Shown one piece after another: positions 1-17,900 of a stretch of DNA of 25,897 nucleotides. Source of the DNA: a virus (Duplodnaviria > Caudoviricetes). Numbering within the stretch: the stretch's first letter is position 1; each line of letters opens with the position of its first letter. The translations under genes were made by a program, and so were the position numbers. The notes beneath the pieces are model-generated. The model ran no database searches. It was not told the origin of the DNA and saw nothing but the letters and a program-made list of their open reading frames with translations. The stretch covers positions 1-25,897 of the IMG/VR virus record IMGVR_UViG_3300049810_001502; one strand, 5' to 3'.

Positions 1-125
1 ATAGCATCAACATCAGAACTATTATTCCATCCTGTTGATCTGAGATACAAGACAGCTTTACCTTTCAAGGTAGCATATCGCTCAATAAAATTATCAAGAT
101 AAAATGCGTCGTAGGATGTGTTCAT
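1..125 (-). CDS. Hypothetical phage protein, 5' part only (runs off window start)
   Basis: Not in the ORF track. ATG at 125 overlaps the TGA stop of the upstream gene (ATGA). The frame is open to base 1: MNTSYDAFYLDNFIERYATLKGKAVLYLRSTGWNNSSDVDA... Confidence 0.7.
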   Translation of the reverse strand, partial: MNTSYDAFYLDNFIERYATLKGKAVLYLRSTGWNNSSDVDA

Positions 126-637: not shown

Positions 638-1110
638 ACTTCAATCCAACATACGAATACATCTCTCCTACCACATTTTACCTCATTTACTCTATGAAGT
701 AAATTGCCTGGATATATTACTGCTTTGCCTTTAGATAATTTAATACTACGTTCATTCTCTATCACTAACTCACCGCCATCATAATCATCATTAAGAAAAC
801 AAGTCATACTATAATCTGATCTCACACCACCACAAGGATTAGCATCATAATGATTATCATACATGCCCCCAACATCATACTTGACAAAATATATCTGTGA
901 TATTATTGACGCAGTGAATGGCAATTTGTTTGCTATTATATCACGACAATACATATTCAAATCTAAATTACCAGGTCCATCAAACACAGTCTGACAGACC
1001 TTATTAGCATCTAGATTACTTTTCGTACCATCTTCAAATGTTAAGTATTTGAAGTATTGTGTGATATGTGATATCTGCTCATCATTTAGTAAATCAATCT
1101 CACATATCAT
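634..1110 (-). CDS. PKHD-type (PiuC/YbiX-like) Fe(II)/2OG hydroxylase
   Basis: Y..GG.Y..HYD...RSD.S.T.FLN..YDGGEL.I...KL..G.AV.YP...LHRV.EV..G.R...V.WI closely follows the PKHD/PiuC pattern. Confidence 0.88.
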   Translation of the reverse strand: MICEIDLLNDEQISHITQYFKYLTFEDGTKSNLDANKVCQTVFDGPGNLDLNMYCRDIIANKLPFTASIISQIYFVKYDVGGMYDNHYDANPCGGVRSDYSMTCFLNDDYDGGELVIENERSIKLSKGKAVIYPGNLLHRVNEVKCGRRDVFVCWIEV

Positions 1111-2054
1111 AGTTCATTTTCATCGACAAAGAATCTATCCCAATCTACTTCAACATCCTCATTAATCTTCAATTCTTTCATCATATCCAAGATTTTCTGT
1201 GTAACTTTCTTAGTAGGAGCAATTCCTCTTTGTGCCAGGTTGAACATGTTGACCTCTCTATTCTTAAAGAAATCGGTTGATGCTTGAGAGTCATGCTTAA
1301 CCCATTGATTGGTATCATCAGCATCCATAAACGCAGGAGCATCTGTTACACCATCATCCAACTTTCCATCTACATACAGTTTCCTATATTTTGCTGGGTC
1401 GATTGGAAATTTAAGATTGTATGTATACTTAAAATATTCCAATCCAGAGTTATTAAATTCTGCATTTGTTGGAGCAGGTGTAGAGTTGTCTCTAATCCAC
1501 TTTCTCCACTTAATCCATTCTGCTTTTTCGCCTTCGTAAGTATCTTCAATATCAGGAAGAATTCTCCAATCAGACAGAGTTAGCATCTCACGCTTCTGCC
1601 TTTTTAGTTTATACATACGCTGCTCATAGAAAGCAACTTCTTTATCAACACCAGCAACTAAGGTATCAACTTTAAGGTTTTTAACCTCAACTACAACCGC
1701 AAAGAATGTTTTAACTAATTCATATAATTCCTTTGCCTGTTCATTTGTAGCACCGGTAAAGGAATATGTTTTCAAGTAATTGCTTTCAGTAGCAAAATCA
1801 TACTTTACTCTTTTCCTTTGGCAGAAATATGTTCCATCATTAAAGTATTGAAAGAACTCAAGTAAATCTTTGTCGGTATGCCAAAATTCGTCAACTGATG
1901 TGCTTAAGAATTTTTCTTTAATTTCAGCATCCATCTTATATCGCTTACCATTATATTCGGTAGGCAGCAAAGTAAATCCTGAGTCAGGACTTCCACCTTC
2001 TAGTATGGTATCGTTTGCGAAATCAACTTGAATAAGAGCTATTTTTTGTTCCAT
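1107..2054 (-). CDS. Putative tail-fibre assembly chaperone-domain protein
   Basis: Central motif KRQKREMLTLSDWRILPD...EWIKWRKWIRD..P resembles the phage tail assembly chaperone pattern R..LL..SDW..LPD...W..YR..LRD.P. The gene lies downstream of tail-fibre genes. Confidence 0.65.
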   Translation of the reverse strand: MEQKIALIQVDFANDTILEGGSPDSGFTLLPTEYNGKRYKMDAEIKEKFLSTSVDEFWHTDKDLLEFFQYFNDGTYFCQRKRVKYDFATESNYLKTYSFTGATNEQAKELYELVKTFFAVVVEVKNLKVDTLVAGVDKEVAFYEQRMYKLKRQKREMLTLSDWRILPDIEDTYEGEKAEWIKWRKWIRDNSTPAPTNAEFNNSGLEYFKYTYNLKFPIDPAKYRKLYVDGKLDDGVTDAPAFMDADDTNQWVKHDSQASTDFFKNREVNMFNLAQRGIAPTKKVTQKILDMMKELKINEDVEVDWDRFFVDENEL

Positions 2055-2060
2055 GGGTCG

Positions 2061-2726
2061 TTAATTACGTTTAATGTACCATCCTGTCAAAATATATTTA
2101 TCTTCAGTCAAAACAGTATTGCCTTTATGTGTATGTGTATATCCTGCTGGCCAGATAACTACCGTGCCTGCCGTTGGTTTAATTCTTCTTCTTTGATACA
2201 AAAATTCTGTCTCTGCTTCACCATCTGGCATATCATTTAGATATATCATCCACACTATTTCTCGCATAGAGTGTGCTTCATCAGAATCTTCATAATGCCA
2301 AAGATGATACCCACCACCAGGAGGTGTTTTTTGTATTTTGATGTCAGAAGAAATTAAACTAGTTTTAGTTAATGATTGATATTGTGAGATGTAGTGTAAT
2401 ACACATGATCTTAGTATTGAATTGATCTTAAGTACCAAATCTCTGTTGGCATAATTTAATATAAATGCCATATCTTTTCTGTTCATCTCACCGCCATATA
2501 AATCTTGCGATTTAATAACACGATCAGCACTATCTACTTGAGATAAATCTAAACTTGGATTAATAACACATGCTTGTTCAATGGTATTGTCAATGAACTC
2601 ACGTAGTTCATCACACACTGGACGGGGCATAAAGTTTGGCCAAACACCAATAAAATCATCAAATTCAACTTTGGTTATATTAGGGTCAAGCATTAATTCA
2701 TGCGGTCTATAATCAGGTAATTTCAT
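2061..2726 (-). CDS. Fe(II)/2OG dioxygenase (221 aa; start moved to MKLPDY)
   Basis: IQKT.PGGGYH.WHYE...WMIYLND...ETEF...P..G..VIWPAG.TH.HKG...KYI.TGW. The ATG at 2726 sits 1 nt after the TAG of the fibre gene, so the 2852 start in the track (125-nt overlap) is unlikely. Confidence 0.88.
   Translation of the reverse strand: MKLPDYRPHELMLDPNITKVEFDDFIGVWPNFMPRPVCDELREFIDNTIEQACVINPSLDLSQVDSADRVIKSQDLYGGEMNRKDMAFILNYANRDLVLKINSILRSCVLHYISQYQSLTKTSLISSDIKIQKTPPGGGYHLWHYEDSDEAHSMREIVWMIYLNDMPDGEAETEFLYQRRRIKPTAGTVVIWPAGYTHTHKGNTVLTEDKYILTGWYIKRN
2095..2102 (-). promoter_or_regulatory. Possible T4-type late promoter (GATAAATA)
   Basis: Same octamer as at 5698-5705, about 40 nt upstream of the ATG at 2054. 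It lies inside coding sequence (D-K-Y codons), so it may be chance. Confidence 0.4.
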
Positions 2727-2727
2727 T

Positions 2728-5670
2728 CTAATATGCTTTGATGATATATTTAGTCTTATGGAATGGATTGATAATTGGTACTTGAATCTGTGGTGACATT
2801 GCAACACTAGGAACCGGTTTAGCAAAACTACTATTCCAGTTGAACGTAGCATCTGTCATATCCATAAAAATATCTGCTTGGGTAAATACCAGGTTAAGTT
2901 GAGTCACGCCATTTCCTAGTCCACTTGTAATGGTGCCAGCACCACCACTATTACCGGAACTAAAATCAAGTTGAGCATTCTGAACAATATCTTCTGTGAG
3001 GAAGTGAGCATGTGCATTTGTAAATCCACTAGTGGGAATATATTGCTCAATTGTAAATCTAGATGTTTCAGTATCAACAACAGCAGCTGCTGCGTTTTGG
3101 GTAGCGCCACCAGTAGATTGTAACGATGCCCCTGCTAAACCACTAACAGGAGATATCCACCAGGTCATAAAATCAACTGTTGCTTGATCATCATCATTCT
3201 CTGGTCCAAAATCAGATTGACCAGTGGCTCCACTTGGAACACTCACATTAACTTCCCAATTAGTTGGCAAATTAGCAGCTGCCCAATCTTTCAAATTAAA
3301 ACCATTGCCATAATACAATTTCATCTCATTTTCAAAAATTCCAAGACCACCAATAAAATCTGCCCATTTACCAGCAATATCATCAGAACTACCAACTTGA
3401 TTTCTATAAGTACTTCTTCCAGTGCTACCACCAAACATAGCCCTACCAGCAGGAGGACCCCATTTAATTAATGGATCTCCACCATCACCATCAGGAAGAG
3501 CGGCAACATATGCATGATCATGTAAAGGAACATTCACCACAACATCTTCCAATGGACCAATTATACCACTAACTTGACCAGCAACAGAAAATGTAATATC
3601 ATCTGTAACTGTTTCAAGACCAGATAATCTCACTGTGCCTAAAGTAAAAAATTCACTATTTACTCCAGTAGTTCCGGTTCCCTGGATTTGTTCTAGTGGT
3701 GGAGAACCCAAAACATCTATTTTATCGAAATACCAATATCCACCTTCAGCACCAACGCTAAGAATAGATCCACCACTATCAATTGGTAGTGAAGTAGAAT
3801 TACCTCTACTAGCATCAACTTGACCAGTTCCACACAGTCTTCTATTTCTATAGTCAGGAATATTAAAACTGGATCCAGACCCACCATACGTATATTGAAT
3901 TACATCAAATAACATAAAATATTGAGTAGTGTCTAAACTTTGACCTTCACATTTAATAAATCCTGGATATCTAGAGCTCAAATCTCCGTCCAAATCACCG
4001 TATCCAACTACTGTATTTTCTTTAAGGATAGGTATCACAGTGCCAATAGGATAACCATCAAATTTTGCTATTTTCTTACTATACCAAACACCTAAATTAT
4101 CTGGTGGTAGAGGTGCTGAGGCATAAGTTGTCGCTGTCCAAGTAAAAGGATTGTTCAAAGATCCTGTGCCCACTGTAACTACCGTAGACGCCCCCGTATT
4201 AAGATTTACTGATGTTAATAGTGTCAATGAGAATGACGTATTCACATTAGGATCAAAAGTTCTAGGACCAACAACAGGAGTATCAGAATCAATAGAGATT
4301 AAACATCCGTTTGTAGCACTAATAGTAATCGGTATATTGATGTCACTTATTGTAACTTGAGAACTACTCACATATGTGCTTGGAACTTGATTAGTTATAT
4401 CAAGTGGAGGAGTAAATATTGCATCACCATCTGGTCCACTACCAGTTATAACAGTCCATGTAGATATAGTACGTTCTCCTACTTTAATCTGTAAAGTTTT
4501 AGGAGTATTAAATGCAGTACTAGATTGTAAATAAATTGTTAACTTATCACCATTTTGCACAGATGTTGGAAATACACCAATAGATCCTGCATTAACTTTC
4601 ACACGAACTAAACTAGAATTCGTAGAAACTACCTCAACAGGAACAGATAAACCAGCTGTCAATCCAGTAATACCAGCAGGTGGTTGCGTATCCGATCCAA
4701 CTAACACATTGGTTAACTGACCAGTTTTATCTTGGAATGAAAAATTACCAGGTGTATCATCATCAGCAACACCAGTAGTAACTGTCCAGGTTGATCCGTT
4801 TGCAGTATCAGCAATAGACAAATCTGTAAATACAGGTGTTAGGTTAGCATTAGAACTTGGAATTCTTAATTGTAGGTAATCTCCATTAGATACAGTTCCA
4901 CTAGTGGACCAAGCAGCACCAAGTAATACATCAAACCCATTAACATTAGTGCTAGTATTACCAGATACAGATAAAGCATATTCACCTGTGCCACTAACAC
5001 TAATAGGACCGTCTTCACTCATTCCTTGTACTGTTAGAACTTCACTATAGATCATAGTATCTGGTTCTACCGGATTTAAATCAGTAAAATTTGGAAATGG
5101 TGTGGCAAAATTACCTGGGACAGCTTCATTTTGCACATCCCATGATTCAGTTGCTGTTCCAATCTCCAGAACAACTTTCATAATTTGAGTGTAAAAAGTA
5201 GAAGTTCTTCCTCTTACCTGTATCCTTGCGCCGTTCTCAACTGTTACAGCAGTAGTATTATCAATCCAACCAGTATCCCAACTTCCATTACCATCGTAAT
5301 CAATACGCATCGCAACATAATCAGTAACAGGAGCTCCTCCAGGTATAGGAACATTAGATGAAATACCTACAGCTGCCTGTGTAGTTGGTGTTAATCCACT
5401 AACAACAACAATTGATTCTCCTGGTCTACTACCATCAGCAAATGTATACAAAGTATCAACTTCAGCACCCTCAAATCCCTCCATGGGATATGGATCTGGA
5501 GTGAAATCCTCCTTGATCGTAATAATCAACCAATATTGAAGTAAGTCACCAATTTGAAGAGTGACTGTTTGGGTTGTATCCCAAGAAGAAGGTGCCTTAA
5601 ATTTAAACTGAACGTAATCGCCTTCGGACACGTAAAGTGGTTCATCATTTGGTGCAAATGAAAATGTCAT
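2728..5670 (-). CDS. Tail fibre protein with N-terminal Ig-like repeats and a tail-collar domain
   Basis: About 4.5 repeats of D.TP..F...V.NGD...W.V.T. Collar motif PIGTVIP...GFIKCEG....Y..LF.VI..TYGG....FNIPDYR at about 3824-4050. HxH motifs at 3514-3522 and 3004-3012. C-terminal YIIKAY. Confidence 0.85.
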   Translation of the reverse strand: MTFSFAPNDEPLYVSEGDYVQFKFKAPSSWDTTQTVTLQIGDLLQYWLIITIKEDFTPDPYPMEGFEGAEVDTLYTFADGSRPGESIVVVSGLTPTTQAAVGISSNVPIPGGAPVTDYVAMRIDYDGNGSWDTGWIDNTTAVTVENGARIQVRGRTSTFYTQIMKVVLEIGTATESWDVQNEAVPGNFATPFPNFTDLNPVEPDTMIYSEVLTVQGMSEDGPISVSGTGEYALSVSGNTSTNVNGFDVLLGAAWSTSGTVSNGDYLQLRIPSSNANLTPVFTDLSIADTANGSTWTVTTGVADDDTPGNFSFQDKTGQLTNVLVGSDTQPPAGITGLTAGLSVPVEVVSTNSSLVRVKVNAGSIGVFPTSVQNGDKLTIYLQSSTAFNTPKTLQIKVGERTISTWTVITGSGPDGDAIFTPPLDITNQVPSTYVSSSQVTISDINIPITISATNGCLISIDSDTPVVGPRTFDPNVNTSFSLTLLTSVNLNTGASTVVTVGTGSLNNPFTWTATTYASAPLPPDNLGVWYSKKIAKFDGYPIGTVIPILKENTVVGYGDLDGDLSSRYPGFIKCEGQSLDTTQYFMLFDVIQYTYGGSGSSFNIPDYRNRRLCGTGQVDASRGNSTSLPIDSGGSILSVGAEGGYWYFDKIDVLGSPPLEQIQGTGTTGVNSEFFTLGTVRLSGLETVTDDITFSVAGQVSGIIGPLEDVVVNVPLHDHAYVAALPDGDGGDPLIKWGPPAGRAMFGGSTGRSTYRNQVGSSDDIAGKWADFIGGLGIFENEMKLYYGNGFNLKDWAAANLPTNWEVNVSVPSGATGQSDFGPENDDDQATVDFMTWWISPVSGLAGASLQSTGGATQNAAAAVVDTETSRFTIEQYIPTSGFTNAHAHFLTEDIVQNAQLDFSSGNSGGAGTITSGLGNGVTQLNLVFTQADIFMDMTDATFNWNSSFAKPVPSVAMSPQIQVPIINPFHKTKYIIKAY

Positions 5671-5697
5671 TCCTCTTACATTGTATCCCAGTATTAG

Positions 5698-5705
5698 TAT
5701 TTATC
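5698..5705 (-). promoter_or_regulatory. T4-type late promoter (GATAAATA; consensus TATAAATA)
   Basis: Located in the only real intergenic gap of the window (5671-5712), 28 nt upstream of the fibre ATG. A purine-rich AAGAGGA directly precedes the ATG. Confidence 0.75.
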
Positions 5706-5712
5706 TATGATG

Positions 5713-8700
5713 TTATAGTTGACGAACATCTTTATAATCATTCTCTTGATTTGTGTCAACTTTAATAGGATAATTTGCTTTAATTTCAATATCAACATCA
5801 ATATCATCAATCAAAATCAACTCAGACAAAATATCTCCTTCTGGACTGAAAACTGGTTCTTGAGCCTTAAGTAATTCGTCCGAATCTGGAATATTTAAAT
5901 TGTCTGGTGTCTGATCAATATTTACTGTGGTAAGTTTGACATCATTAGCAGTGCCGCCTTCACCAACAACATCAATAGAAAAACTAATTTGAGAAGGACC
6001 AAAATTACTCCAAGGAACAGTTATGGGAACAGTTCCATTTGCCTTAGTTTGTGAATCAGGATCTCCCAATTCAGCACCAGTAGCAGGTGTTCTATTAATA
6101 GAAGTTCCTGTTGTTGTTGTACCATTCAAATAAGTATATGTTGGAGTAATACTTATACTAGTGTTAGCATATTGAGTATTGTATTGAATGTTAAAATTAT
6201 TTCCATAATCTACTTCGTTTGGAACTGTCAAAGATGCGGTTGGAATTTGTTTTACATTAATTGTGATACATGTTACAGGCGATTGTCCAGCAACTCCATC
6301 TAAAAAAGCACAATATGTTGTAGTATCTGTCGGACAAACTTGTGATGAACTAGTCAAATTTCCATTAGTTATAGTTCCAGTAGTCCACGTAATAGTGGAA
6401 GCATCTCCAGTATAACCCCAACTGATATTGGCACATGTTCCAACAATAATAGTAGTTTTATTAGCACTTATCTGAAGTGTTGGTGGAATTAAAACATTAA
6501 CTGTAACTTGTCGTGTTGTACTTCCTGCAGGACCAGTTGCTGTTAGAAGATATGTAGTATTTGATTGTGGAAATACAACAGCACTACTGACAAAATTACT
6601 GAACGTAGTAGCGTTTGATAAAACTCCTGGAGCAATATTAAGAGTATTAAGATCACCAAACGCAACCCAGTCTAACGTGACGGACTGCCCCTGAATAATT
6701 GTAACGATATTTGTTGTATTATTTACAGTAAAATTAGCACTAGGAGGAAGATATACAATATGACCCTCAATATATCTCTCACCAGCAGCACTAAGACTCA
6801 ATACAATTTCAATACCAGCATTAGCACAACGTGTCAAGAAATAATTATATGATGCCTGAACTGTAGAGAGTCTCATCGAACCGGAAATATCAATCCAGAT
6901 AGAAACAATTGTTCCATATGGCAAAGAACCAAAATTACAAATCGCAAACCAATCAGATCTATTACCAGCATTTCCTTCATCGCGATTAACACGAATTGGT
7001 CCAATTGCGTTAGGATCTGCTGGATATGCTGTAGGCACATCAATACCACCTTGCCCTGATGCTTGTGGATCTAGGATATAGAAAGTTCTGTATGGGAATG
7101 CTGTTCTAAATCCTCTACGATTATTTACAGCGCCACCAATAATAGCACTACCTGCCCACACATTATTTAAATTTGATTGATTATTATAATAACTATTATT
7201 TGTTTCATCAATGACAGATACACAAGTAACTAACTTCGCAAAATCTACTGCTGTAATATTACTTGATTTAACATTAAATTCTTCATCAATACTTACAGGA
7301 TCACTATTTGGTTTTATGAGATATACACCAGATTCAGTAGGCAAAGAGTTTCCACCAACCGAACTTCCCTGAACATAAGGAGGAGTGCCAATTTGTCTGA
7401 TATCATACCATTCATTTTGTTGATTGAGATCAATTTGAATAGGGTAATCACTTTTAACTTCTACTTTAATGTCAACATCATCAATTAAAAGCAAATCAGT
7501 TAAAACTTCTACATCAGGGGGAGTATAAATGGGTTGTTGATCTTTTATTAAATCTACACTCTCGGGAATGTTTAAATTATCAGGAGTATCATCAATAATG
7601 ATCGGTATAGTAATTACTTCTTCTTGGAACGTTCCCAGTTTACCAGTTGCTCTAACTACGTATGTAACACTCAATGGTCCTCGATCATCGTACGGTATTG
7701 TCGTAGTGTAAATATCCGTATTTTCTATGCCAGTAGATTCGGCACTATCATTAACAGATAAATTAGCAGCAGATGCTGTAGTAGATCCAACAAAATCATA
7801 CGTGTAAGTTGGTGTTATTGTGACAGACTCAGTAGCATATCTTGTAGTAACTTCGATATTGCCTTGTTGACCATATAAAATATTTGTTGGATAATCAACT
7901 TCTACTGTTGGAAAATAATAAACAACAACAGAAACTGAAGATACATCTGAAGTTCCGCCAAGTCCCGATACATATGCGGCATATGATGTAGTGGTTGTAG
8001 GACTGACATTACTATTACTACTAAGATTTGAATTAGTTATTCCACCAGAAACCCATACAATATTATCAGCATCTCCAGTTGTAACCCAAGAAAGATTAGC
8101 CACACTACCAAGCATCATTTCGATCTTATTGGTAGAAATAATAATAACAGGAGGAATGTAAACTACGATGGATACAGTAGCAGTATCAGTCAATCCACCA
8201 TAACCAGTAACAGTTAATGTATATGTTCTATCGTCTGGGGGATAAACATCAATAGAACCATTGGGAACATTAACTGCATTAACGCCATTATTAATGCTAC
8301 CAAAAAGAGAATTTGTAGATGTCCACGTTAATGTAGCTTTTTCTCCAGCAATGATAGGCGAAGGGTTAATAGTAAAACTATCAATTGTTGGAGCACCTAT
8401 GTTCCATTTTACTATAACAAATCCATTTCCAAAATTAGATGTTCCTGTATTATTAGTAAAAGAACAATAACTACTATCATAAGCAGACCGTCCACCATTA
8501 CCACCACGTCCGCCATAATTGTTGTCAAGTCCAAAGGCTCCACCAGAACCACCAGATGCGCCTCCGCCTCCTCCACCTCCCCCACCACCGTCAGTGGGAC
8601 ATGATGAACCAGTAGAACCACCACTAATACTGTTTATATTTCCAGTAAACATTCCGGTGCCAGCACCACCATTAGTAGCATTTCTATTCCAAGAAGCACC

Positions 8701-11292
8701 ACCACCGCCGCCACCTCCTCCGGCTATAGCAACATATCCATTTTTAACGGAATCATATACAGCAGTAGCGCCGCCACCGCCTCCTCCTCCACCAGAGCAT
8801 CCTTGGGGACCACTTCTGCCACCAAATCCACCGGTAGCTACATTAGAACTTCCTCTTGATCCTGCTCCACTATTTGCTACACAACCAAAACCAGATCCAC
8901 CTATAAAACCTATCCTTAATGTAAATGTCCTTGCCGTATAATCATTAAATGTCAAAAGTGCTCTTCTACCAGAACCTCCAGATCCAGCACTACCATTAGC
9001 ATCTGTACCACCCTTGCCACCACTAGCAGCTGCTATATCTGCGGTAACATTAATAGCATAAGATGGAATAATAACAGTAGCATCTGATGTATATGTTGTA
9101 TTTGAATCAGTTGCTGGACCAGGAGGAGGGGTAACATTTATCGCAACACATTGAGTATCACTAATTCCTCCAGGTCCACTAGCAATAGCACAATATTGTG
9201 TAGAATTTGTAGGAGAAACTGTTGCTGTTCCATTTATTGAATTGTTAGTAATTCCCGGAGTTCCTGAAGTCCAATTAACAACATTTGCATCTCCAGTTGT
9301 ATTCCAATTTATGTTAACACTTTGACCCGATACTATAGACGATGCATTAGCAGTTACTACAATTTGTGGTTTGACAGGAACAGTAATTGTTCTACTAGCA
9401 GTCGAAGTTCCTGTAGAATTTGTTGCTGTAAAAGTATAAGTTGTCGTAGTTGTAGGACTTACTGCTACACTACCAAGATTACCAGGGTTAGTAACACCGG
9501 TCATCGTGGTGTTTGTTATATCAAAACCAGACGCAGCCCACGTTAAAATTACAGAATCACCAACAATAATTGTATCATCGGGATCATCTGAAGAAAGACT
9601 TACTGTCGGGGCAAGAATATTAACAACAATTGTTATAGTTGTTGTAGTTGTTCCAGAAGGATTAGTTGCTCTAAAAGTATAAGTTGTCGTAGTTGTAGGA
9701 CTTACTGTTACACTACCGTTAAGTCCAGGATTAGCAACACCAGTCATTGTAGTGCTGCTAATAGCAACATTTGCAGTAGCAGACCAAGTAAGTATTACAG
9801 ATTCTCCTCTCAAAATAGTATTATTAGCATCATTTGAGGTAAGAGATACTACTGGAAGATCATTTAGAACAGTAACTGTTACAGAAGTAGTAGAAGTTCC
9901 ATATGGGTTAGTTGCCGTATACGTATAAGTTGTTGTTACTGTAGGAGCAGGAAAATATACACCACTATTTCCAACACTAGGAATAGGATTAGTTACAACT
10001 CCATTAGCAGTTGCAGTAAAAGTATTGGAAGTTATACCCTCGCCAGTGGCAGAGTATGTAAGCCTCAGACTTTGACCTTTGTAAATGCTAGTAATATTAT
10101 TTGGTGGGGTGCTATAATCAGTTGCAGTTAGACTTACTGTTGGTGGTACTGGAGGAATATATCCAGTCCAATCCATTGCTACACCATATGGACCACCATT
10201 ATTAACATGTTCAATCCGTATAGTATGTTCACCAGCACTAATAATGTCTGCTGTGGTTAAAGAAGTATTGGCGTTATAAGTGTTAAGTGAAAATTGCAAT
10301 ACATTGTCAATGTATACGTCAGCATCATCATCTACAGCTGTATTAAATATTTGTCTTCCAGTATTGTTAAAATCAACTTTCCATTCAATTGATCTAGTAA
10401 CGGTAGTGCCTTCAGGTTCATAACCACCTACGTTAGTATTAGTTAAAAAAGTAGTCCACTGGTTATTTGGATCAGATCCCTGAGATCCTATAATATTATC
10501 AATTTGGGGAGATCTAGTGGTCCAATCAAAATCTTCTGTGACAATTTGATCCTCATATGAAATTGTAACAAAAGAACTATTAGAACTAGAAGTTTCAAGA
10601 GTAGAAGCACTGTTATGATATGAAGGATTGTACAACCCAGCACCACCAGCACCACCAAATCCACTACCATCATTACCACTGACGTAGGCATATCCAGGAG
10701 CAAACAATCCTGTAGTGCCACCAGGAAATCCCCCACCAGCGCCTCCACCGCCGCCATTCCAAGCGCCACCAGAATTCTGTCCAGCAGCACCATTAGATCC
10801 GCCACTAGTGTTAATATCAGAAGATGTCTGACCATTGTCAGCAGCGCCATTGGTACTAAAACAAATACACGCTCCTCCACCGCCTCCACCAGCACCAGCT
10901 AATACAGTACCACCAATACGAATAGCAGTAGCGCCACCTCCACCGCCGCCGCCACCAGCATTCCATCCATTACTACTATCCGAGGAATTATTATTACCAC
11001 CACGTCCACCATTCCAATATCCACCAGCACCATTTCCACCAGTATCTCTATTTCCACCAACTCCCGATCCATTGCCACCCATCGTTAATGTGAGTGTTGA
11101 ACCAGCAACGCCAGTTAAAGTTCCAGATATTTTTTGTCCTCTAGCACCAGCACCACCAGAAGATCGGTTAACACGAGTATTACATGGACCACCAACAGCA
11201 CCTTTACCACCATGAATAATATATGTAACATTAGCAGCATCCGAAGGAATAGCATATGTAGTGCTAGATGTAAACGTTTGAGTGGTTGCCAT
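5713..11292 (-). CDS. Large modular virion/adhesin protein (2 Gly-rich domains, PA14-like, Ig/PKD-like repeats, VWA-like, 2 half-Ig modules)
   Basis: Gly-rich domains at about 10555-11292 and 8404-9099. VDDDADVYIDN at PA14-like position. About 81-aa Thr/Val-rich repeats. DISGS MIDAS-like motif at 6877-6891. D.TPDNLNIP...RQ module occurs twice. Confidence 0.8.
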   Translation of the reverse strand: MATTQTFTSSTTYAIPSDAANVTYIIHGGKGAVGGPCNTRVNRSSGGAGARGQKISGTLTGVAGSTLTLTMGGNGSGVGGNRDTGGNGAGGYWNGGRGGNNNSSDSSNGWNAGGGGGGGGATAIRIGGTVLAGAGGGGGGACICFSTNGAADNGQTSSDINTSGGSNGAAGQNSGGAWNGGGGGAGGGFPGGTTGLFAPGYAYVSGNDGSGFGGAGGAGLYNPSYHNSASTLETSSSNSSFVTISYEDQIVTEDFDWTTRSPQIDNIIGSQGSDPNNQWTTFLTNTNVGGYEPEGTTVTRSIEWKVDFNNTGRQIFNTAVDDDADVYIDNVLQFSLNTYNANTSLTTADIISAGEHTIRIEHVNNGGPYGVAMDWTGYIPPVPPTVSLTATDYSTPPNNITSIYKGQSLRLTYSATGEGITSNTFTATANGVVTNPIPSVGNSGVYFPAPTVTTTYTYTATNPYGTSTTSVTVTVLNDLPVVSLTSNDANNTILRGESVILTWSATANVAISSTTMTGVANPGLNGSVTVSPTTTTTYTFRATNPSGTTTTTITIVVNILAPTVSLSSDDPDDTIIVGDSVILTWAASGFDITNTTMTGVTNPGNLGSVAVSPTTTTTYTFTATNSTGTSTASRTITVPVKPQIVVTANASSIVSGQSVNINWNTTGDANVVNWTSGTPGITNNSINGTATVSPTNSTQYCAIASGPGGISDTQCVAINVTPPPGPATDSNTTYTSDATVIIPSYAINVTADIAAASGGKGGTDANGSAGSGGSGRRALLTFNDYTARTFTLRIGFIGGSGFGCVANSGAGSRGSSNVATGGFGGRSGPQGCSGGGGGGGGATAVYDSVKNGYVAIAGGGGGGGGASWNRNATNGGAGTGMFTGNINSISGGSTGSSCPTDGGGGGGGGGGASGGSGGAFGLDNNYGGRGGNGGRSAYDSSYCSFTNNTGTSNFGNGFVIVKWNIGAPTIDSFTINPSPIIAGEKATLTWTSTNSLFGSINNGVNAVNVPNGSIDVYPPDDRTYTLTVTGYGGLTDTATVSIVVYIPPVIIISTNKIEMMLGSVANLSWVTTGDADNIVWVSGGITNSNLSSNSNVSPTTTTSYAAYVSGLGGTSDVSSVSVVVYYFPTVEVDYPTNILYGQQGNIEVTTRYATESVTITPTYTYDFVGSTTASAANLSVNDSAESTGIENTDIYTTTIPYDDRGPLSVTYVVRATGKLGTFQEEVITIPIIIDDTPDNLNIPESVDLIKDQQPIYTPPDVEVLTDLLLIDDVDIKVEVKSDYPIQIDLNQQNEWYDIRQIGTPPYVQGSSVGGNSLPTESGVYLIKPNSDPVSIDEEFNVKSSNITAVDFAKLVTCVSVIDETNNSYYNNQSNLNNVWAGSAIIGGAVNNRRGFRTAFPYRTFYILDPQASGQGGIDVPTAYPADPNAIGPIRVNRDEGNAGNRSDWFAICNFGSLPYGTIVSIWIDISGSMRLSTVQASYNYFLTRCANAGIEIVLSLSAAGERYIEGHIVYLPPSANFTVNNTTNIVTIIQGQSVTLDWVAFGDLNTLNIAPGVLSNATTFSNFVSSAVVFPQSNTTYLLTATGPAGSTTRQVTVNVLIPPTLQISANKTTIIVGTCANISWGYTGDASTITWTTGTITNGNLTSSSQVCPTDTTTYCAFLDGVAGQSPVTCITINVKQIPTASLTVPNEVDYGNNFNIQYNTQYANTSISITPTYTYLNGTTTTGTSINRTPATGAELGDPDSQTKANGTVPITVPWSNFGPSQISFSIDVVGEGGTANDVKLTTVNIDQTPDNLNIPDSDELLKAQEPVFSPEGDILSELILIDDIDVDIEIKANYPIKVDTNQENDYKDVRQL

Positions 11293-12083
11293 TTTAGATC
11301 TGCCTTACTTTTGTCCAATCATTATCTTGATTGAGATCAACTTGAATAGGATAATTTGATTTAATCTCTACTTTAATATCAATATCATCAATTAAAATCA
11401 AATCAGATAAAACTTCCACCGCTGGTGAGACAACTGGTGTTTGATCTTTTAACAAATCCTCGCTATCAGGAATATTTAGATTATCTGGAGTATCATCAAT
11501 AATAATTGGAATAGTAACTACTTCTTCTTGGAAGTTGCCTAATTTACCTGTTGCTCTAATTACGTATGTAACACTTAGTGGTCCCCTATCATTATAAGGT
11601 ATTGTTGTAGTATATGCTGTAGTAGATTGAGTTCCACCAATTTCAGCACTGTCATTAACAGGCAAATTAACTACAGAACCCGTAGATGATCCAACAAAAT
11701 CATAATTATATGTTGGTGTTATTTTTATAGAATCTGTAGCATATTTTGTGGTAACATCAATAGTTCCCTGGTTATTATATACTAAATTGGTTGGAGAATC
11801 TACAGATAATTGTACTGGTTGATAAACAACAACAGTTACACTACCGGTATCTGTTCCACCAACACCAGAAACTCGACCCGTATATATTGTAGTATCTGAT
11901 GGAGTTACATTTGAATTGCTATTCAAATTTCCATTAGTAAGACCACCAGATAACCAAGTTAAAGTAGGAGTCCAATTTAATCCACCACCATCGCCACTAA
12001 CAGTCCAAGAAATATTGGCAGTGCTGCCAAGCATCATTTCCGTTTTATTAGTAGAAATACTAAAAATAGGAGGAATGTAAACC
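7390..12083 (-). repeat. Duplicated ~260-codon stalk module (7390-~8165 and 11297-~12083; diverged third copy 5716-~6495)
   Basis: Shared peptides VYIPP...STNK.EMMLGS.AN.SW, TPTY.YDFVGS, TTIPY.DRGPLSVTYV.RATGKLG.FQEEV.TIPIIIDDTPDNLNIP, with visible DNA similarity. Confidence 0.9.
9429..9717. repeat. Intragenic direct repeat, 36 nt exact (46 nt with 1 mismatch), period 243 nt
   Basis: taaaagtataagttgtcgtagttgtaggacttactg at 9429-9464 and 9672-9707, encoding the VSPTTTTTYTF segment of adjacent Ig-like repeats. Confidence 0.9.
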
Positions 12084-12781
12084 GTTAAAGTTTTTGTGAC
12101 TGACTTATTTGTAATATTATAATAAGTTGCAGACAAAGTACGACTAATAGTATTATTAGGACTATAGTTCAAACTACCAGATGCTCCAACATTACCTTGA
12201 CCAGTTAAAGTTCTGGATGTAGAATTACTAACTGACCAAGATAATGTAGATGTTTGTCCTCTCTTAATAGCAGTAGGATTGAAATTTAAAGTAACACTTG
12301 GCGTTGGATATACACAAGTTCCATTATCAACATCTGCGTTTGGATTATAGTTTGTAGCACGAGAGTCTGTACATCCAGGAACAGGCGGGGGTGGAATATA
12401 TCCAACCCAATCTATAGCAATACCCCAAGGTCCACCACCACTGTTAATAGATGTAGCACTAAGAGTATATGTACCCGGACCATAGTAATTTGCGGTAGTG
12501 ACTAAACTTTGTCCCCCAAATCCACCCATTCCCATTTCATAGTTGCCATTAATATAAATCGCCCCACTATCATCCACATTAGCATAGAATCGTTGTCTGC
12601 CATAATTTGCAAAAGTAATAGTCCAAGAATATGTTCTATTGATGCCCCCACCAGAACCACCAGGATCCCTGCCCCCAATATTATAAGTGTTCATGAAATT
12701 AGACCAATTAGGCTCATAAAATGTGCCGTTAAATCCTTGGTTATTAGGAGATCTACTTGTAAAACTAGAATCTTGGGTCAT
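11294..12781 (-). CDS. Modular virion protein, paralog of the 1,859-aa protein (PA14-like, GCTD motif, Ig-like, half-Ig module)
   Basis: N-terminal domain NVDDSGAIYINGN...GGGPWGIAIDW.GYIPP matches the downstream gene. Contains GCTDSRATNYNPNADVDNGTC and the shared C-terminal module. Confidence 0.8.
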   Translation of the reverse strand: MTQDSSFTSRSPNNQGFNGTFYEPNWSNFMNTYNIGGRDPGGSGGGINRTYSWTITFANYGRQRFYANVDDSGAIYINGNYEMGMGGFGGQSLVTTANYYGPGTYTLSATSINSGGGPWGIAIDWVGYIPPPPVPGCTDSRATNYNPNADVDNGTCVYPTPSVTLNFNPTAIKRGQTSTLSWSVSNSTSRTLTGQGNVGASGSLNYSPNNTISRTLSATYYNITNKSVTKTLTVYIPPIFSISTNKTEMMLGSTANISWTVSGDGGGLNWTPTLTWLSGGLTNGNLNSNSNVTPSDTTIYTGRVSGVGGTDTGSVTVVVYQPVQLSVDSPTNLVYNNQGTIDVTTKYATDSIKITPTYNYDFVGSSTGSVVNLPVNDSAEIGGTQSTTAYTTTIPYNDRGPLSVTYVIRATGKLGNFQEEVVTIPIIIDDTPDNLNIPDSEDLLKDQTPVVSPAVEVLSDLILIDDIDIKVEIKSNYPIQVDLNQDNDWTKVRQI

Positions 12782-12783
12782 TT

Positions 12784-13671
12784 TTAGAACTTAATAATAT
12801 ATTCTACAAGAATAAATGGTGTAACCAACTGATCTAATTTTTCGTCATTACTAACATCAATGTCAACCCTAGCAAGTACTCCAGACATATCAATATCTTT
12901 TTGTGGATATGAATAAGTAAAATTACTAGTATATGCTATTGGTTTTTCAACTCTGTGGTCATGAATAGATTCTCTACCAGATTCAAAAGTAAAATCAGTT
13001 TGATTACCAGCACCACTATTTGCTAATCTTAGCGCATTATCTTTACCACCTTCTCCACCTACTTGATGACTAGTACTATAGTTTAAATATGTTTGATTTG
13101 CCCGATGAAGATGTCCCTGAAAATTTTCAATATTTAATTCAGTTTCAGAAGTATTTCGGTCTAATTTATATCTAGGATTGCCCAACATATTGAGTGTCCC
13201 ACTGGCAGTAACACGAGCAGATCCTATATAATTCGCGCTAATTTGACTGCCAAAATTACTGATAACTTCAATTTGTGGTCCAACTCTATTTGTTGTAGCA
13301 GCATTTAAATCTTCCCTGTCTACAAAATCATTATTATATGCTCCAGTTCCTCTACCACCAATAATTACCTTAGATCCCAAATCAGGCAATTGAAACTGCC
13401 CCAAATCATTAATAGAAGGATCAGCGTTTCTAACCTGTGAAATTTCTCTTTTAAATCTACACTGATCTCCAACACCAACGACTCTAGATAATGCCAAAAA
13501 ATCTTTTGCCAATAAAACAGATCCATCACACTTCAAATACCCCGCTGGAATATTTTCTTTAAATTGGGCAGTAGTGGGGTCGTTAGATGAAGAAATTGCT
13601 GGAGTAGTATGCACTAATATACTACCAACACATCCTCCATATTTTGATCTTTCGTATGTGTAATTTGCCAT
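12784..13671 (-). CDS. Tail-collar domain protein (short tail fibre-like)
   Basis: VGSIL...IPAGYLKCDGS.....F.AL..V.G...FQLPDL...VIIG. HLH and HDH motifs. C-terminal EYIIKF. Confidence 0.85.
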   Translation of the reverse strand: MANYTYERSKYGGCVGSILVHTTPAISSSNDPTTAQFKENIPAGYLKCDGSVLLAKDFLALSRVVGVGDQCRFKREISQVRNADPSINDLGQFQLPDLGSKVIIGGRGTGAYNNDFVDREDLNAATTNRVGPQIEVISNFGSQISANYIGSARVTASGTLNMLGNPRYKLDRNTSETELNIENFQGHLHRANQTYLNYSTSHQVGGEGGKDNALRLANSGAGNQTDFTFESGRESIHDHRVEKPIAYTSNFTYSYPQKDIDMSGVLARVDIDVSNDEKLDQLVTPFILVEYIIKF

Positions 13672-13672
13672 T

Positions 13673-14971
13673 TTAGTATGCTCGGATGATGTATATACAT
13701 GTCATAGACGGTTGACTAGTGTTCATACTAATCTGTAGTGCTGCAACATTTGAAGCATTATCTAGATTGGTGGTAGCGGGAATATTGACATCAGCAACCA
13801 ATGTAGATTGTGGTTTTAAACTATTTTGATCGTATAGAACTGTAATTGGTTCATGATCATGAGCATCAACATTTGCTTGTGCGCCACCACCAGTATCAGT
13901 AATAAAACTAGATCCAGGATTACTTAGTAATGTGCCATAGTTTCCAGCAGCTGGCGTATCTTCGTAATAATTAGTAAATCCTGCAGGAATATTAGTATTA
14001 CCACCACCAGACGCAAAAGGAACCGAATTAGCTCCATTGCCGCCCAAAACAGGATAATCATAATTAATAGCTTGAGCAAGAGAAGTTTGAGTAACTCTTT
14101 GTGGTGATAAGTTAATAGGTGGATTTTCACCACTAACTCTCATAACAGTTCTTCCTGGGTCTCCACTACCAAATCCACTAAAATTACCAAAAGATCCCCA
14201 GTTGCCCCCTCCAGCTAACTCAACATTACCTTTTTTAAATCCTTCGTGTCCAAGTCGAACAGAGTCAACAACACCATCATCAAATCTACTACCAAAAAAT
14301 GATGGCGCTTCATCAATAGCAGCATAATTAAATGTTGCCGTTATATTATCATAAGGTACAACACCTAATCCAGGTCTTTGATTTGTTTGTGTTCCAGCAC
14401 TACCAAGACCACCAGTTACAGTTTCATAAATTCCACTATGACCATGTGCTCTGACGTGAGTATGTCCTAATTTTCTACCACCAATAAATATAGATTTTTC
14501 CCCTTCACCATCTATAATATTGTTACCTCTAACATTTCCAGAATATCCAGTTCTCTCATTTAATGTGAAAATTACATCAGTATATACATTATTCCAAGCA
14601 GCATTCACTCCATTATCAGTATTTTGTCCAATATATGGAGAAATTAAATTACCAGCATCAGGATCATTATCTCTGTCAGCAGTTAATGATCCAAAATAAG
14701 ATTGTTCAATGTCCATCAACATTTTACCACCAACTAAATTAGGTAGTGTAAAATTACCAGTATATCCTGGAAATCCTCCTCCTAAATTAGTCGTTCCAGA
14801 ATTATAAGTATCCCCAATTGCTTGCACAAGTAAAGGATACTCATTTGCTGGTGGTTGAGTTCCATCACAAATAATCCAACCTTTTGGTATATTACTGACA
14901 GGTCCAGACCATGGCATGATGGTGCCAATAACGGCACCTTTCATGGTTCTTGTTTCTTGATAGAAAGGCAT
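13673..14971 (-). CDS. Tail-collar domain protein (short tail fibre-like)
   Basis: IGTIMPWSG....IPKGWIICDG......YP.L...IG.TY...F.LPNL.G. HTH, HGH and HDH motifs. C-terminal QPSM...YIIRAY. Confidence 0.88.
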   Translation of the reverse strand: MPFYQETRTMKGAVIGTIMPWSGPVSNIPKGWIICDGTQPPANEYPLLVQAIGDTYNSGTTNLGGGFPGYTGNFTLPNLVGGKMLMDIEQSYFGSLTADRDNDPDAGNLISPYIGQNTDNGVNAAWNNVYTDVIFTLNERTGYSGNVRGNNIIDGEGEKSIFIGGRKLGHTHVRAHGHSGIYETVTGGLGSAGTQTNQRPGLGVVPYDNITATFNYAAIDEAPSFFGSRFDDGVVDSVRLGHEGFKKGNVELAGGGNWGSFGNFSGFGSGDPGRTVMRVSGENPPINLSPQRVTQTSLAQAINYDYPVLGGNGANSVPFASGGGNTNIPAGFTNYYEDTPAAGNYGTLLSNPGSSFITDTGGGAQANVDAHDHEPITVLYDQNSLKPQSTLVADVNIPATTNLDNASNVAALQISMNTSQPSMTCIYIIRAY

Positions 14972-14975
14972 TTTC

Positions 14976-17900
14976 TTATACGTCCATTAAGTACCAACCC
15001 GCAAGGGATGAAGGCACACCAGGTTGACCACCAGGCGCAGATATTCCAGCATAAACTAATCCAAACGAAGCATTAGGTGTTTGAACAACTAATTCACCAC
15101 CGCCCCATCCAGCAAACTCAATCGATTGAACACCTGACGTTAGTGACTGTCCAGTATTCGATATTTCACCTTGAACTTTGGTATTGTCATATGCTCTAAC
15201 AATCATCGTCTGATTATATGTGAGACTACCACTTATATCTATAATACGAACCATATCACCCATTTGAGGATCGGGAGGTAATCTCAAAAGAGTATTACCA
15301 GTGCAATTAACAAAGTAATTAACATTAGCGTCTAAAGTCTCTGCAGTATCACCAATATACACCCACTTACGACCACCAGTATCAGTGATATAATTTTCAA
15401 TTTTGGCAATTTTTAATGATCCGTTATCAGAAACTTGGAAGATGCTATCACCATCCGTATTTGTAATTTCAAACTTAGAATCAAGTGCCGTTCTACCAAT
15501 CCCTTCCTGGAACTCAAGGTTGATTCCACCATCGATGTCAAGTGATCCACCAAATGTAGATACTCCCGTTCCTAAAGCAGAGAAAGAACCATATACAGCG
15601 AAGTCTCCAGAAGAGTTATCAAATGTCAAGCGTGGAGTAGTGCCATCAGTTCCAAAGAAGTTCATGTCACCACCGTTGATCGTTAGATCTCCAGTTGCGG
15701 TATCAACTTCTAAAGTTGTTCTAGCAGGAACACCACCAGCACCACCATCAGTAATGGTAAAGAACTGCTGATTTACAATCGTAGAACCATTAATCGTTAG
15801 TGTATTTTCTGTAGTTAGAGTTCCGGCAACAGTAGTGTCCCCAGTAACACTATCAATAGTAAACTTACTAAATCCAACACCAACTCCAACATCACCTAGA
15901 ATGATAGTATCTCCAGTTGTAGATTCTACTCTGAATACATCAACCGCAGGATCTCCACCATCATTAACAATTAGAGATTGTGGTGAAGTTGAAACCAAAC
16001 TTTCAATAGCAACAAATTCAGACTTCGACAATCGGATAAGATCAGCAGTAGTTAAAGTACCACCAAATTCAGCAATACCAATTCTTACATTGCCAGTTCC
16101 ATTTCCAATACCGGATAATGGTTCGTCTAGTTGACCATCATTGTTAAGGTCAGAACCAGTAATGTAAGAAGCATTTGATTGCTTATCAAGTTTAGCAAGT
16201 AAACAACCATCAGGATGATTGGTGCCGAGATTTGTTCCTTCTTGTCCTCTGCTAACAATTAATCTGTAACCGTTTATATCAGATGGGTTAGCAACGTTAG
16301 CGATACCAACAATACGAACAATTTCACTTTGAGATTCATCTCTCAATCCAGTTACGATATTTGCTCCACTACCAACACTATCAGGAGAGAAAGAACTTCC
16401 TCTATCAACTAAGATTAAATCTCCAACCTTGAAATCAGTAATAGAAGGAGTGGTAATTGGTAGATAGTAGTTATTACCAACAGAGTTAACTCCATTTACT
16501 TGGAACGTAAGGTCTCCACCGCCACCGCCACCTAACTGAGAATCAGTAATGGTGATTGTTTCATCGTTAGCATATCCTTCACCAGGACTTTCAATTGTAA
16601 TATCAATAGTGAAATCAAATCGAACAAGAACTGTAAAGTTTGCTCCGATACCAGCACCATCAGAAGTGCCCTCAAGGAAGTTATAAGTTCCAGGTGTTCT
16701 ACTTGTCGATCCGTTATTAACAATGTTGTCAATAGCAGCAATTTGACCCCCAGAAACTAAGAACGTGTTTGATCCCCAAGAAGAAACACCCGCAGTATCA
16801 ATGTATCGTCCGGTAGTCTGATATTTGTAGAAGTCAATGTTTGGATTATCAACTCCACCAACTTGGTGTCCAACAATATTAGTTCCAAATCTACCTCTTA
16901 CAACTTCAATAATACCAGCGTTTAAACCACCGTCCAATCTGATATTACCTTCAACGATTGCAGAAGCAAGAACATTCAATGTGTTTCTAATAGTGGTTGT
17001 TCCACCAGTAGAACCTAAAGTAAATGTAGTTGCGTTGGTAGCAAGATTAACTGTATTGGTTTGATCTCCATCAAAAAGGTTAGCAACTCTTGTTTGCGTA
17101 AACAATCTAGAACTGCTAGTTCCAGCACCATATCCAGTACCAATCTCAAGATTACCAGCAAGTCCAGTGTAGAATGTTTCAATCTTAACGAAAGAAGATG
17201 TATCTGCCTGTGTTGCCCATGCTCCACCCAAAGTGATGTTACATGTAGATGCTACATCATTAGCAACAGTAGCAATATCTAATACTGCTGACTGAGTATT
17301 TCTAAGAACCTTAAGAGTTCCATTTGTAGCAGACTCACCAATAAGTGTATTAATATTACCAGAGGAATTAGCAATATTAATTGTCTGATTAGAACTAGTG
17401 TTATTCAACAGATTAAGAATCTGACCCTCACCAGCCCAATTTAGAATATTAGCATTTTGATTGACGAAGTTGAATGCATTGTTTGTAGTTGTAATATCAC
17501 CATCATTAACTTCAAGATCACCAGTAATCTCTAGATTCTCGTGAATCCTAGCATCACCAACGACAACAAATGTCTTATCAAGACTCTTGTAAGGATTGAT
17601 TGTATCGTTAACAGCAGTGTTAATACCGACTCTACCATTATTGGTAGTCATCACTCTGAATGTAGCATTATCACTAGGATTGTCACTATCACCACCAACT
17701 AAGAATGCATCGTCAACATTAGTTTCAGTCTTGATAATAGAAGACTCAGTTAAGTAAGAATTAATTTTCTTACCGCTGACGAATGTTGTTCCAACAATGT
17801 CTAAGTTAGCTCTTGGTAGGACTTGATCAGAACTAAATGCGTCTAAACAATCATCATGAGCAGATCTAGCAATAGTATTAATACCTAGTTTATAGTCACC

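What the first reader, a model, noticed from the sequence alone, without database searches (positions are those of the whole stretch)
5518..11497. Split Ig-like domain: three 'plugs' on adhesins and one 'socket' on the fibre
Seen: the 980-aa fibre is built from a repeat (DDTPGNFSFQD...VEVVS...VKVN / VQNGDKLTIYLQSS...LQIKVG...TWTVIT) but begins with only the second half (VSEGDYVQFKFKAPSSW...VTLQIG....WLIIT, 5518-5670). The first half appears as an orphan ~67-aa module three times: ending the 495-aa protein (11297-11497), inside the 1,859-aa protein (7390-7593) and ending it (5716-5916). Module VLSDLILIDDIDIKVEIKSNYPIQVDLNQD aligns without gaps to fibre repeat VSSSQVTISDINIPITISATNGCLISIDSD, and DDTPDN matches DDTPGN. 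Inference: the halves complete one fold in trans, docking lectin/Gly-rich/VWA cargo onto the fibre, similar in principle to pilus strand complementation. Three plugs would fit three sockets of a fibre homotrimer (3:1:1). In a heterotrimer they would instead be alternative tips.
Basis: partly seen in the sequence, partly recalled or inferred. Interest (0 to 1): 0.85.

Follow-up and report, generated by a model that had tools for sequence, protein, structure and literature searches.

The report
Snap-on adhesin joint in cyanophage fibres
In this marine cyanobacterial virus one small protein domain is cut in two, with its first half on two accessory proteins (three copies) and its second half at the start of a tail-fibre protein, so the halves likely snap together and would let the virus hang a choice of putative host-binding heads on its fibres.

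Summary
The window is a Synechococcus phage ACG-2014j-like tail-fibre locus. The 980-aa fibre has four whole Ig-like repeats but starts with only the second half of a fifth (HHalign 93-96%). Three 67-68-aa 'plugs' resemble the missing first half: directly only weakly (12-40%), and better through a bridging clade (98.5% to the plug, 82-89% to whole repeats). All 185 plug-bearing ORFs with an intact end finish with a plug, and 119 of 120 fibres start with the socket. A sister lineage (Sf-CH1b) cuts the same repeat family at its last strand instead, another lineage adds a plug-only gene, and two phages lack both socket and plug genes. Docking by fold completion is therefore likely (about 0.8) but inferred; the complex predictor was unavailable. 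The 3:1:1 homotrimer reading is not supported, because plugs number 1-6 per locus. Three collar genes travel together, which favours a heterotrimer with one socket and alternative tips. The principle is known (Tuc2009 BppU-BppA, pili); I found no paper on a one-socket, many-plug version. The scan noted this joint before on another genome (e1-5787773).

The parts
5509..5670 (-). Socket: fibre aa 1-54, the second half (last four strands by analogy with repeat 3) of an Ig-like repeat
   Evidence: HHalign 93-97% to second halves. Model shows only the last hairpin, pLDDT 49-77. At the N-terminus of 119 of 120 homologues.
4111..5508 (-). Four whole Ig-like repeats, fibre aa 55-520 (arm)
   Evidence: pLDDT 75-94; Foldseek top hits are Ig-like domain arrays; no Pfam family.
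2728..4110 (-). Collar domain and HxH-bearing fibre tip, aa 521-980
   Evidence: Pfam Collar aa 569-610, E 1e-10; PHROG 4924 short tail fibre; HxH at 717 and 887.
5698..5704 (-). Late-promoter-like ATAAATA in the 42-nt gap before the fibre gene
   Evidence: TAAATA lies before 29 of 29 distinct fibre-gene leaders and 9 of 88 cargo-gene leaders; motif described in PMC2984593 (passages).
5716..5916 (-). Plug 3: C-terminal first-half module of the 1,859-aa protein
   Evidence: pLDDT 58-68 alone against 79-96 for the neighbouring Ig domains.
7390..7593 (-). Plug 2: internal first-half module, followed by a G/P/S-rich linker and not by a socket
   Evidence: pLDDT mostly 33-38. In ACG-2014i the equivalent unit ends a separate 1,204-aa gene.
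6751..7251 (-). Predicted alpha/beta head with a DxSxS-like motif (VWA-like, unconfirmed)
   Evidence: Secondary structure; no Pfam hit; fold search not obtained.
5713..11292 (-). 1,859-aa cargo protein: Gly-rich, PA14 (aa 288-376), Ig and second Gly-rich blocks, plug, alpha/beta head, Ig, plug
   Evidence: Pfam PA14 E 4e-6; PHROG 29022, 2155 and 9770 'virion structural protein'.
11297..11497 (-). Plug 1: C-terminal first-half module of the 495-aa protein
11294..12781 (-). 495-aa cargo protein; its N-terminal part resembles the PA14 region of the 1,859-aa protein
   Evidence: BLASTP aa 1-171 to aa 251-417, E 5e-19; PHROG 2155.
12784..13671 (-). 295-aa collar/HxH protein, candidate heterotrimer chain
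   Evidence: Pfam Collar E 9e-4, below cut-off; PHROG 4714; HxH at 187 and 237.
13673..14971 (-). 432-aa collar/HxH protein, candidate heterotrimer chain
   Evidence: Pfam Collar E 3e-11; PHROG 4591; directly before the 295-aa gene in 86 of 89 loci.
14976..25679 (-). Giant fibre gene (3,567 aa as called here; the frame is open to the window edge), likely the proximal fibre
   Evidence: PHROG 4527; role inferred from gene order.
1107..2054 (-). Tail assembly chaperone
   Evidence: PHROG 4697.

Best explanation
The three plugs and the fibre's first 54 residues match the two halves of one Ig-like repeat, and they likely bind by rebuilding that domain, which would hang a cargo protein on the end of the fibre's four-repeat arm. 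Shown: the halves, their terminal positions, their complementary cut point and their variable number. Inferred: the 980-aa fibre likely forms a 1:1:1 heterotrimer with the 432-aa and 295-aa collar proteins, so each distal fibre would have one arm and one socket. The plugs would then compete, different fibres of a virion would carry different heads (PA14-like, Gly-rich, alpha/beta), and a two-plug chain could bind by either plug or bridge two fibres. Host binding by the heads is inferred from domain type. Docking alone about 0.8; docking plus heterotrimer about 0.62.
For: (1) Socket = second half: HHalign 93-97%. (2) Plug = first half. 52 of 89 plugs beat the 99th percentile of 1,780 shuffles on a bacteria-only first-half HMM. 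The best hit falls inside a plug in 85 of 132 cargo proteins against 17.5 expected. In the reciprocal search, 30 of 30 hits above 3 bits lie in the first half. Bridging-clade plugs match the plug at 98.5% and whole repeats at 89%, 82% and 53%. (3) Position: 185 of 185 plug ORFs with an intact end finish with a plug and none holds a socket; 147 of 150 representatives likewise; 119 of 120 fibres start with the socket. (4) Moved cut: in the Sf-CH1b lineage, 19 of 19 repeat-bearing ORFs stop at position 86-89 of the 105-position repeat HMM, and the six collar proteins examined start with the missing last strand. (5) Joint absence: S-H9-1 and ACG-2014h have three consecutive collar genes with no repeats, socket or cargo genes. 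(6) A plug-only 49-59-aa gene precedes the fibre gene in 13 of 14 Sf-FR1-type loci. (7) Whole repeats model at pLDDT 75-94, the socket at 49-77 with one hairpin, and the plugs at 33-68. (8) The socket is the most conserved fibre segment, 0.64 against 0.48-0.61 for the repeats. (9) Heterotrimer: plug counts of 1-6, a conserved triad (86 of 89), and a biochemically shown collar-protein heterotrimer in DSLV2 (PMC12724248, passages).
Against: The direct plug-to-repeat match is weak (HHalign 12-40%, E 3e-4 to 2e-3), and the window's own plug A does not score on the bacterial first-half HMM (-1.0 bits). The bridging plugs were picked with the plug HMM, so the 98.5% is partly circular. The plug has drifted: it has an insertion and 16-18 acidic residues against 6 in the first half of repeat 3, so it may have gained another role. 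Low pLDDT can also reflect shallow alignments (33 rows). Three plugs is the commonest count (34 of 51 locus rows, redundant rows included), which a homotrimer would also predict. The three collar proteins differ in length and align poorly beyond the collar. Plug-socket co-variation is slight (partial r 0.18, untested). The moved-cut loci are one closely related lineage.
Confidence: 0.62

Rival explanations
1. Same split-domain docking, but the 980-aa fibre is a homotrimer with three sockets, so up to three plugs decorate each fibre at once.
For: Three plugs is the modal count (34 of 51 rows). T4 gp37-type collar tips are homotrimers (PMC12724248 passages). The fibre gene has its own late-promoter motif, which would allow higher output.
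Against: Counts of 1, 2, 4 and 6 occur. The other two collar genes are always alongside and sit consecutive with it in S-H9-1 and ACG-2014h.
Confidence: 0.2
2. The plug is a diverged, self-standing anchor that binds some other virion part or other plugs, and the fibre's half repeat is completed otherwise or is a relic of an old gene fission.
For: Weak direct homology, acidic drift and an insertion in the plug. Internal plugs exist (38 of 223 copies).
Against: The socket is better conserved than whole repeats. Socket and plug genes are absent together. A second lineage has a different but again complementary cut. Two plugs in one chain did not fold confidently.
Confidence: 0.13
3. Plug and socket end up in one polypeptide through stop read-through, ribosomal bypass, splicing or DNA rearrangement, so no docking in trans is needed.
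For: In the window the 42-nt gap between plug 3 and the fibre start is in frame.
Against: The gap holds a second in-frame stop. In relatives it is 32-49 nt and falls in all three frames, and it carries a promoter motif in 29 of 29 leaders. The route could not serve upstream or internal plugs.
Confidence: 0.03

Closest known systems
Lactococcus phage Tuc2009 BppU-BppA joint (PMC4742702, passages read; PMC9692632, passages)
   Same: An accessory carbohydrate-binding protein is attached to a phage adhesion device by a composite beta-sandwich: a BppU hairpin completes a sheet of BppA's C-terminal domain, and the composite resembles a titin domain.
   Different: One partner on one site, a hairpin rather than half a domain, and a siphophage baseplate. 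No sequence link: the plug and repeat profiles find no convincing solved structure. Here 1-6 plugs share one socket gene and the intact domain survives as repeats next door.
Chaperone-usher pilus donor-strand complementation (recalled, not looked up)
   Same: An incomplete Ig fold is completed by a partner's N-terminal segment. The Sf-CH1b lineage has this one-strand form.
   Different: The window's cut is mid-domain. No chain carries both parts, so it cannot polymerise, and there is no usher.
Virophage DSLV2 tripartite tail proteins (PMC12724248, passages)
   Same: Three linked collar-domain genes, related to Synechococcus phage tail proteins, co-purify as a 1:1:1 heterotrimer.
   Different: About 58 kDa in total, with no Ig arm or docked cargo in the passages read. 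That paper models Synechococcus phage fibres as homotrimers.
T-even gp38 adhesin on gp37 (PMC3157838, passages)
   Same: A separate Gly-rich adhesin attached to a distal fibre by a conserved attachment domain.
   Different: gp38 attaches by its N-terminal domain to the fibre's C-terminal tip and there is one adhesin gene. Here the attachment module is C-terminal, the site is the fibre's N-terminus, and several genes share it.
Pseudomonas phage A1002 split nozzle gp39/gp42 (PMC13730344, passages)
   Same: A phage structural protein split into two genes whose products fill each other's missing beta-strands, shown by cryo-EM.
   Different: A one-to-one split of a nozzle propeller, not a reusable tag on several cargoes.
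Unnamed ~98-aa Ig-like repeat of large bacterial proteins (L105-L231)
   Same: The same repeat: 67 of 75 motif-bearing ORFs are hit by the phage-only HMM, with up to 17 whole copies in one ORF.
   Different: No Pfam family. Whole in the bacterial ORFs examined; partial copies were at locus edges or were 31-position motif-only hits.

Membership tests
Ig-like beta-sandwich repeat | All-beta ~100-aa sandwich resembling Ig-fold domains | tested here: met
   Model repeats are all-beta at pLDDT 75-94; Foldseek top hits include axoneme central-apparatus chains, PrgB Ig-like domains and titin (whole-chain search, low TM-scores). Predicted, not solved.
Split-domain (fold-complementation) joint, BppU-BppA type | Two chains carry complementary, near non-overlapping parts of one fold | tested here: met
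   strong for the socket, moderate for the plug.
Split-domain (fold-complementation) joint, BppU-BppA type | The two parts bind and rebuild the domain | not testable with these tools
   Needs a complex prediction or a bench test; see Tried and rejected.
BppU-BppA family proper | Sequence homology to BppU/BppA | tested here: not met
   Profile searches of the PDB gave only weak capsid hits, E 0.015-0.64.
Chaperone-usher donor-strand complementation | A single missing strand supplied by an N-terminal extension | tested here: not met
   The window's cut is mid-domain. The form is met only in the Sf-CH1b lineage.
Chaperone-usher donor-strand complementation | Subunits carry both donor and acceptor and polymerise | tested here: not met
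   No ORF holds both plug and socket.
Tripartite collar-protein heterotrimer (DSLV2 type) | Three linked collar-domain fibre genes | tested here: met
   consecutive in S-H9-1 and ACG-2014h, separated by cargo genes in the window.
Tripartite collar-protein heterotrimer (DSLV2 type) | 1:1:1 assembly | not testable with these tools
   The three chains exceed the 1,000-residue limit of the complex tool, which was also unavailable.
T-even gp38 adhesin | N-terminal attachment domain binding the fibre's C-terminal tip | tested here: not met
   The conserved module is C-terminal (185 of 185); no gp38 family among the PHROG or Pfam hits.
VWA domain (cargo head) | Rossmann-like alpha/beta fold with MIDAS motif | tested here: inconclusive
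   An alpha/beta domain is predicted with a DxSxS-like motif; no Pfam hit; fold search not obtained.

The most novel reading that the evidence does not exclude
T4-like cyanophages use a natural split-Ig tag as a plug-and-play port. One socket per heterotrimeric fibre accepts any of 1-6 tagged heads, so a single genome builds virions with mixed fibre tips. Multi-plug chains cross-link fibres, a plug-only cap tunes occupancy, and the port arose at least twice at different cut points of the same repeat.
Probability: 0.4. Interest if true: 0.87.

Novelty: new variant of a known kind. Interest (0 to 1): 0.72.

Why it matters
The T4 tail-fibre genes g34, g35, g37 and g12 are listed among those not found in all cyanomyoviruses, and their fibre proteins are largely unassigned (PMC2984593, passages). 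This locus gives a concrete, testable assembly model for the distal fibre of S-PM2, Syn1, S-CAM1 and relatives. It names the genes likely to carry host-binding heads, and it explains how heads can be gained, lost or fused without changing the fibre. In an S-PM2d chemostat study, early mutations fell in genes labelled S-PM2d219 and S-PM2d224, and a late series fell in S-PM2d220 (PMC9910659, passages); these numbers match the three collar genes of this locus in S-PM2. If binding is confirmed, the 67-aa and 54-aa halves would also be a small natural split-domain pair worth characterising.

Full report
Setting. The window is a stretch of a T4-like cyanophage: fibre aa 1-180 is 99.4% identical to Synechococcus phage ACG-2014j and plug 1 is 100% identical. 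On the minus strand the order is a giant fibre gene, collar proteins of 432 and 295 aa, cargo proteins of 495 and 1,859 aa, the 980-aa collar-bearing fibre, a 2OG-Fe(II) oxygenase and a tail assembly chaperone. The same order holds in S-PM2, Syn1, S-CAM1, S-CAM3, S-CAM4, S-RIM32, S-H9-2, ACG-2014e, ACG-2014i, Sf-FP1 and Sf-CH11.

Observation. The three modules and the fibre N-terminus are at the stated coordinates. The fibre has four whole repeats (aa 55-520). They model as all-beta domains at pLDDT 75-94 and match Ig-like arrays in Foldseek. The repeat also occurs whole, in arrays of up to 17, in large bacterial proteins: a motif scan gave 127 loci, 75 motif-bearing ORFs, 67 of them hit by a phage-only HMM, and 97 dereplicated repeats. 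It has no Pfam family.

The socket. Fibre aa 1-54 matches second halves at 93-97% HHalign probability and does not match first halves (0.7%). It starts 119 of the 120 listed fibre homologues (120 of 141 hits were listed); the exception is a fragment beginning inside a repeat. It is the best-conserved segment of the fibre (0.64 against 0.48-0.61 for the repeats, 108 sequences). In the monomer model only its last hairpin forms, at pLDDT 49-77.

The plug. Direct profile matches to first halves are weak: 12-40%, E 3e-4 to 2e-3, always in the same register; two early comparisons (repeats 1 and 2) gave about 1% or less. The window's own plug A scores -1.0 bits on a bacteria-only first-half HMM. At family level the signal is clear. 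52 of 89 plugs exceed the 99th percentile of 1,780 shuffles. The best first-half hit lies inside a plug in 85 of 132 cargo proteins, against 17.5 expected by length (135 examined, 3 without a hit). Reciprocally, 31 of 97 bacterial repeats beat the shuffle threshold and all 30 hits above 3 bits end before residue 58. In part of the Sf-FR1-type clade, where the plug follows a whole repeat, 22 plugs match the window-type plug at 98.5% (partly circular, as they were picked with that HMM) and whole repeats at 89%, 82% and 53%. Both halves seem to keep the short aromatic-bearing segment at the cut, an overlap of about seven residues (read). Modelled inside the cargo chain, the C-terminal plug reaches pLDDT 58-68 and the internal plug mostly 33-38, against 79-96 for the adjacent Ig domains (33 rows).

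Position and number. Across 104 loci plus the window there are 223 plug copies: 185 C-terminal and 38 internal. All 185 ORFs with an intact end finish with a plug, none holds a socket, and internal plugs are followed by low-complexity linkers. An independent profile search found 188 proteins; of the 150 listed, 147 end in a plug and none has a socket. In 51 complete locus rows (redundant rows included) the count is 3 in 34, 2 in 14, and 1, 4 and 6 once each; one ORF holds four plugs. Plugs within a genome are more alike than between genomes (0.64 against 0.46). Heads vary: among 50 of the 150 representatives Pfam found PA14 (2), SUEL lectin (1), CBM5/12 (1), Gly_rich_2 (1) and DUF5648 (4), several below cut-off, and nothing in 38.

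Natural experiments. (a) Sf-CH1b and 11 related viral contigs have the orthologous locus with the cut moved. The cargo genes carry the repeats, and 19 of 19 such ORFs stop at position 86-89 of the 105-position repeat HMM. The collar protein has no repeats and begins with a strand matching the last strand of the window's repeat 4 (six examined). (b) S-H9-1 and ACG-2014h have three consecutive collar genes with no arm, socket or cargo genes. (c) Sf-FR1-type loci keep the mid-domain cut and add a plug-only gene of 49-59 aa just before the fibre gene in 13 of 14 loci. A tree of the collar-tip region (30 sequences) puts the four layouts in four well-supported groups; it is unrooted, so the order of events is not shown. 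Two different yet complementary cuts in one repeat family, each duplicated on several cargo genes, are hard to explain unless the parts re-join.

Mechanism. Shown: complementary halves, terminal placement, joint absence, moved cut, variable number. Inferred: a plug and the socket fold together into a fifth Ig-like repeat, making the cargo a continuation of the fibre arm. By general Ig topology each half contributes to both sheets, so neither should be stable alone; the plug-only gene would then be a cap for empty sockets. The fibre gene has its own late-promoter motif (29 of 29 leaders against 9 of 88 for cargo genes) and the gap falls in all three frames, which argues against read-through. 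For stoichiometry, the 432-aa and 295-aa collar genes sit together in 86 of 89 loci (the three misses are cut by a locus edge), all three proteins have a collar, HxH motifs and a similar C-terminal strand, and a related virophage triad co-purifies 1:1:1 (PMC12724248, passages). I therefore favour a heterotrimer with one socket and competing plugs (0.62). A homotrimer with three sockets remains possible (0.2), since three is the modal count and the three chains align poorly beyond the collar.

Against. Direct homology of the window's plugs is weak, the plug is more acidic than a whole first half, co-variation with the socket is slight (partial r 0.18 against -0.12 to 0.08, 22 genomes, no test), and the VWA label is unconfirmed. 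A fully fused cargo-arm-collar form was not found, by a weak search.

Comparison and novelty. Fold completion between phage proteins is known: a BppU hairpin completes BppA's beta-sandwich in Tuc2009 (PMC4742702, passages), and the A1002 nozzle is split with strand complementation (PMC13730344, passages). Pilus donor-strand complementation is recalled, not looked up. The window's system fails the sequence and architecture tests for these families but likely works like them. I found no paper on a one-socket, many-plug joint in cyanophages in seven searches of an open-access library. The moved cut, the bare triad and the plug-only gene do not appear in the few lines of that note that I saw. Verdict: a real feature and a new variant of a known kind, interest 0.72.

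Noticed in passing
L232:13137-21250 (Synechococcus phage Sf-CH1b) and L234-L244: Orthologous locus cut at the last strand of the repeat next to the collar: a one-strand donor form of the same joint.
   Followed up: yes
L245:6753-6929 (Sf-FR1) and L248-L260: Conserved plug-only gene of 49-59 aa directly before the fibre gene, a possible cap or chaperone. These fibres (1,850-1,990 aa) are longer; Sf-FR1's carries a Gly-rich head between repeats.
   Followed up: partly
L246:8974-12098 (S-H9-1), L247:8974-12719 (ACG-2014h): Three consecutive collar genes with no arm or cargo; the simplest test case for a heterotrimeric cyanophage fibre tip.
   Followed up: partly
L037:3159-9938: One 2,259-aa ORF with four plugs separated by acidic linkers.
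   Followed up: partly
L105-L231 (bacterial genomes): A ~98-aa Ig-like repeat in arrays of up to 17 in large bacterial proteins, with no Pfam family; about 430 stored stretches estimated to hold the motif.
   Followed up: partly
L233:13410-17447 (S-SCSM1): A 1,345-aa protein annotated as a virion protein carries whole copies of the repeat at a different locus, without a collar hit.
   Followed up: no
window 122-2852: Three 2OG-Fe(II) oxygenase genes flank the chaperone right after the fibre gene, as in most relatives; a link to fibre modification is untested.
   Followed up: no
window 14976-25897: The giant fibre's reading frame is open to the window edge, so the protein is probably longer than 3,567 aa; relatives are about 3,700-4,300 aa.
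   Followed up: no
window 7479 and 11571: One contig in run X12 joins these places with a 26-letter short side; it may come from a relative with another plug layout or from a repeat artefact.
   Followed up: no
L010/L049 (S-CAM4) against L006 and the window: Close relatives (fibre about 90% identical) differ in plug layout: two plugs in two genes, three in two genes, or three in one ORF, which suggests recombination between plug-adjacent repeats.
   Followed up: partly
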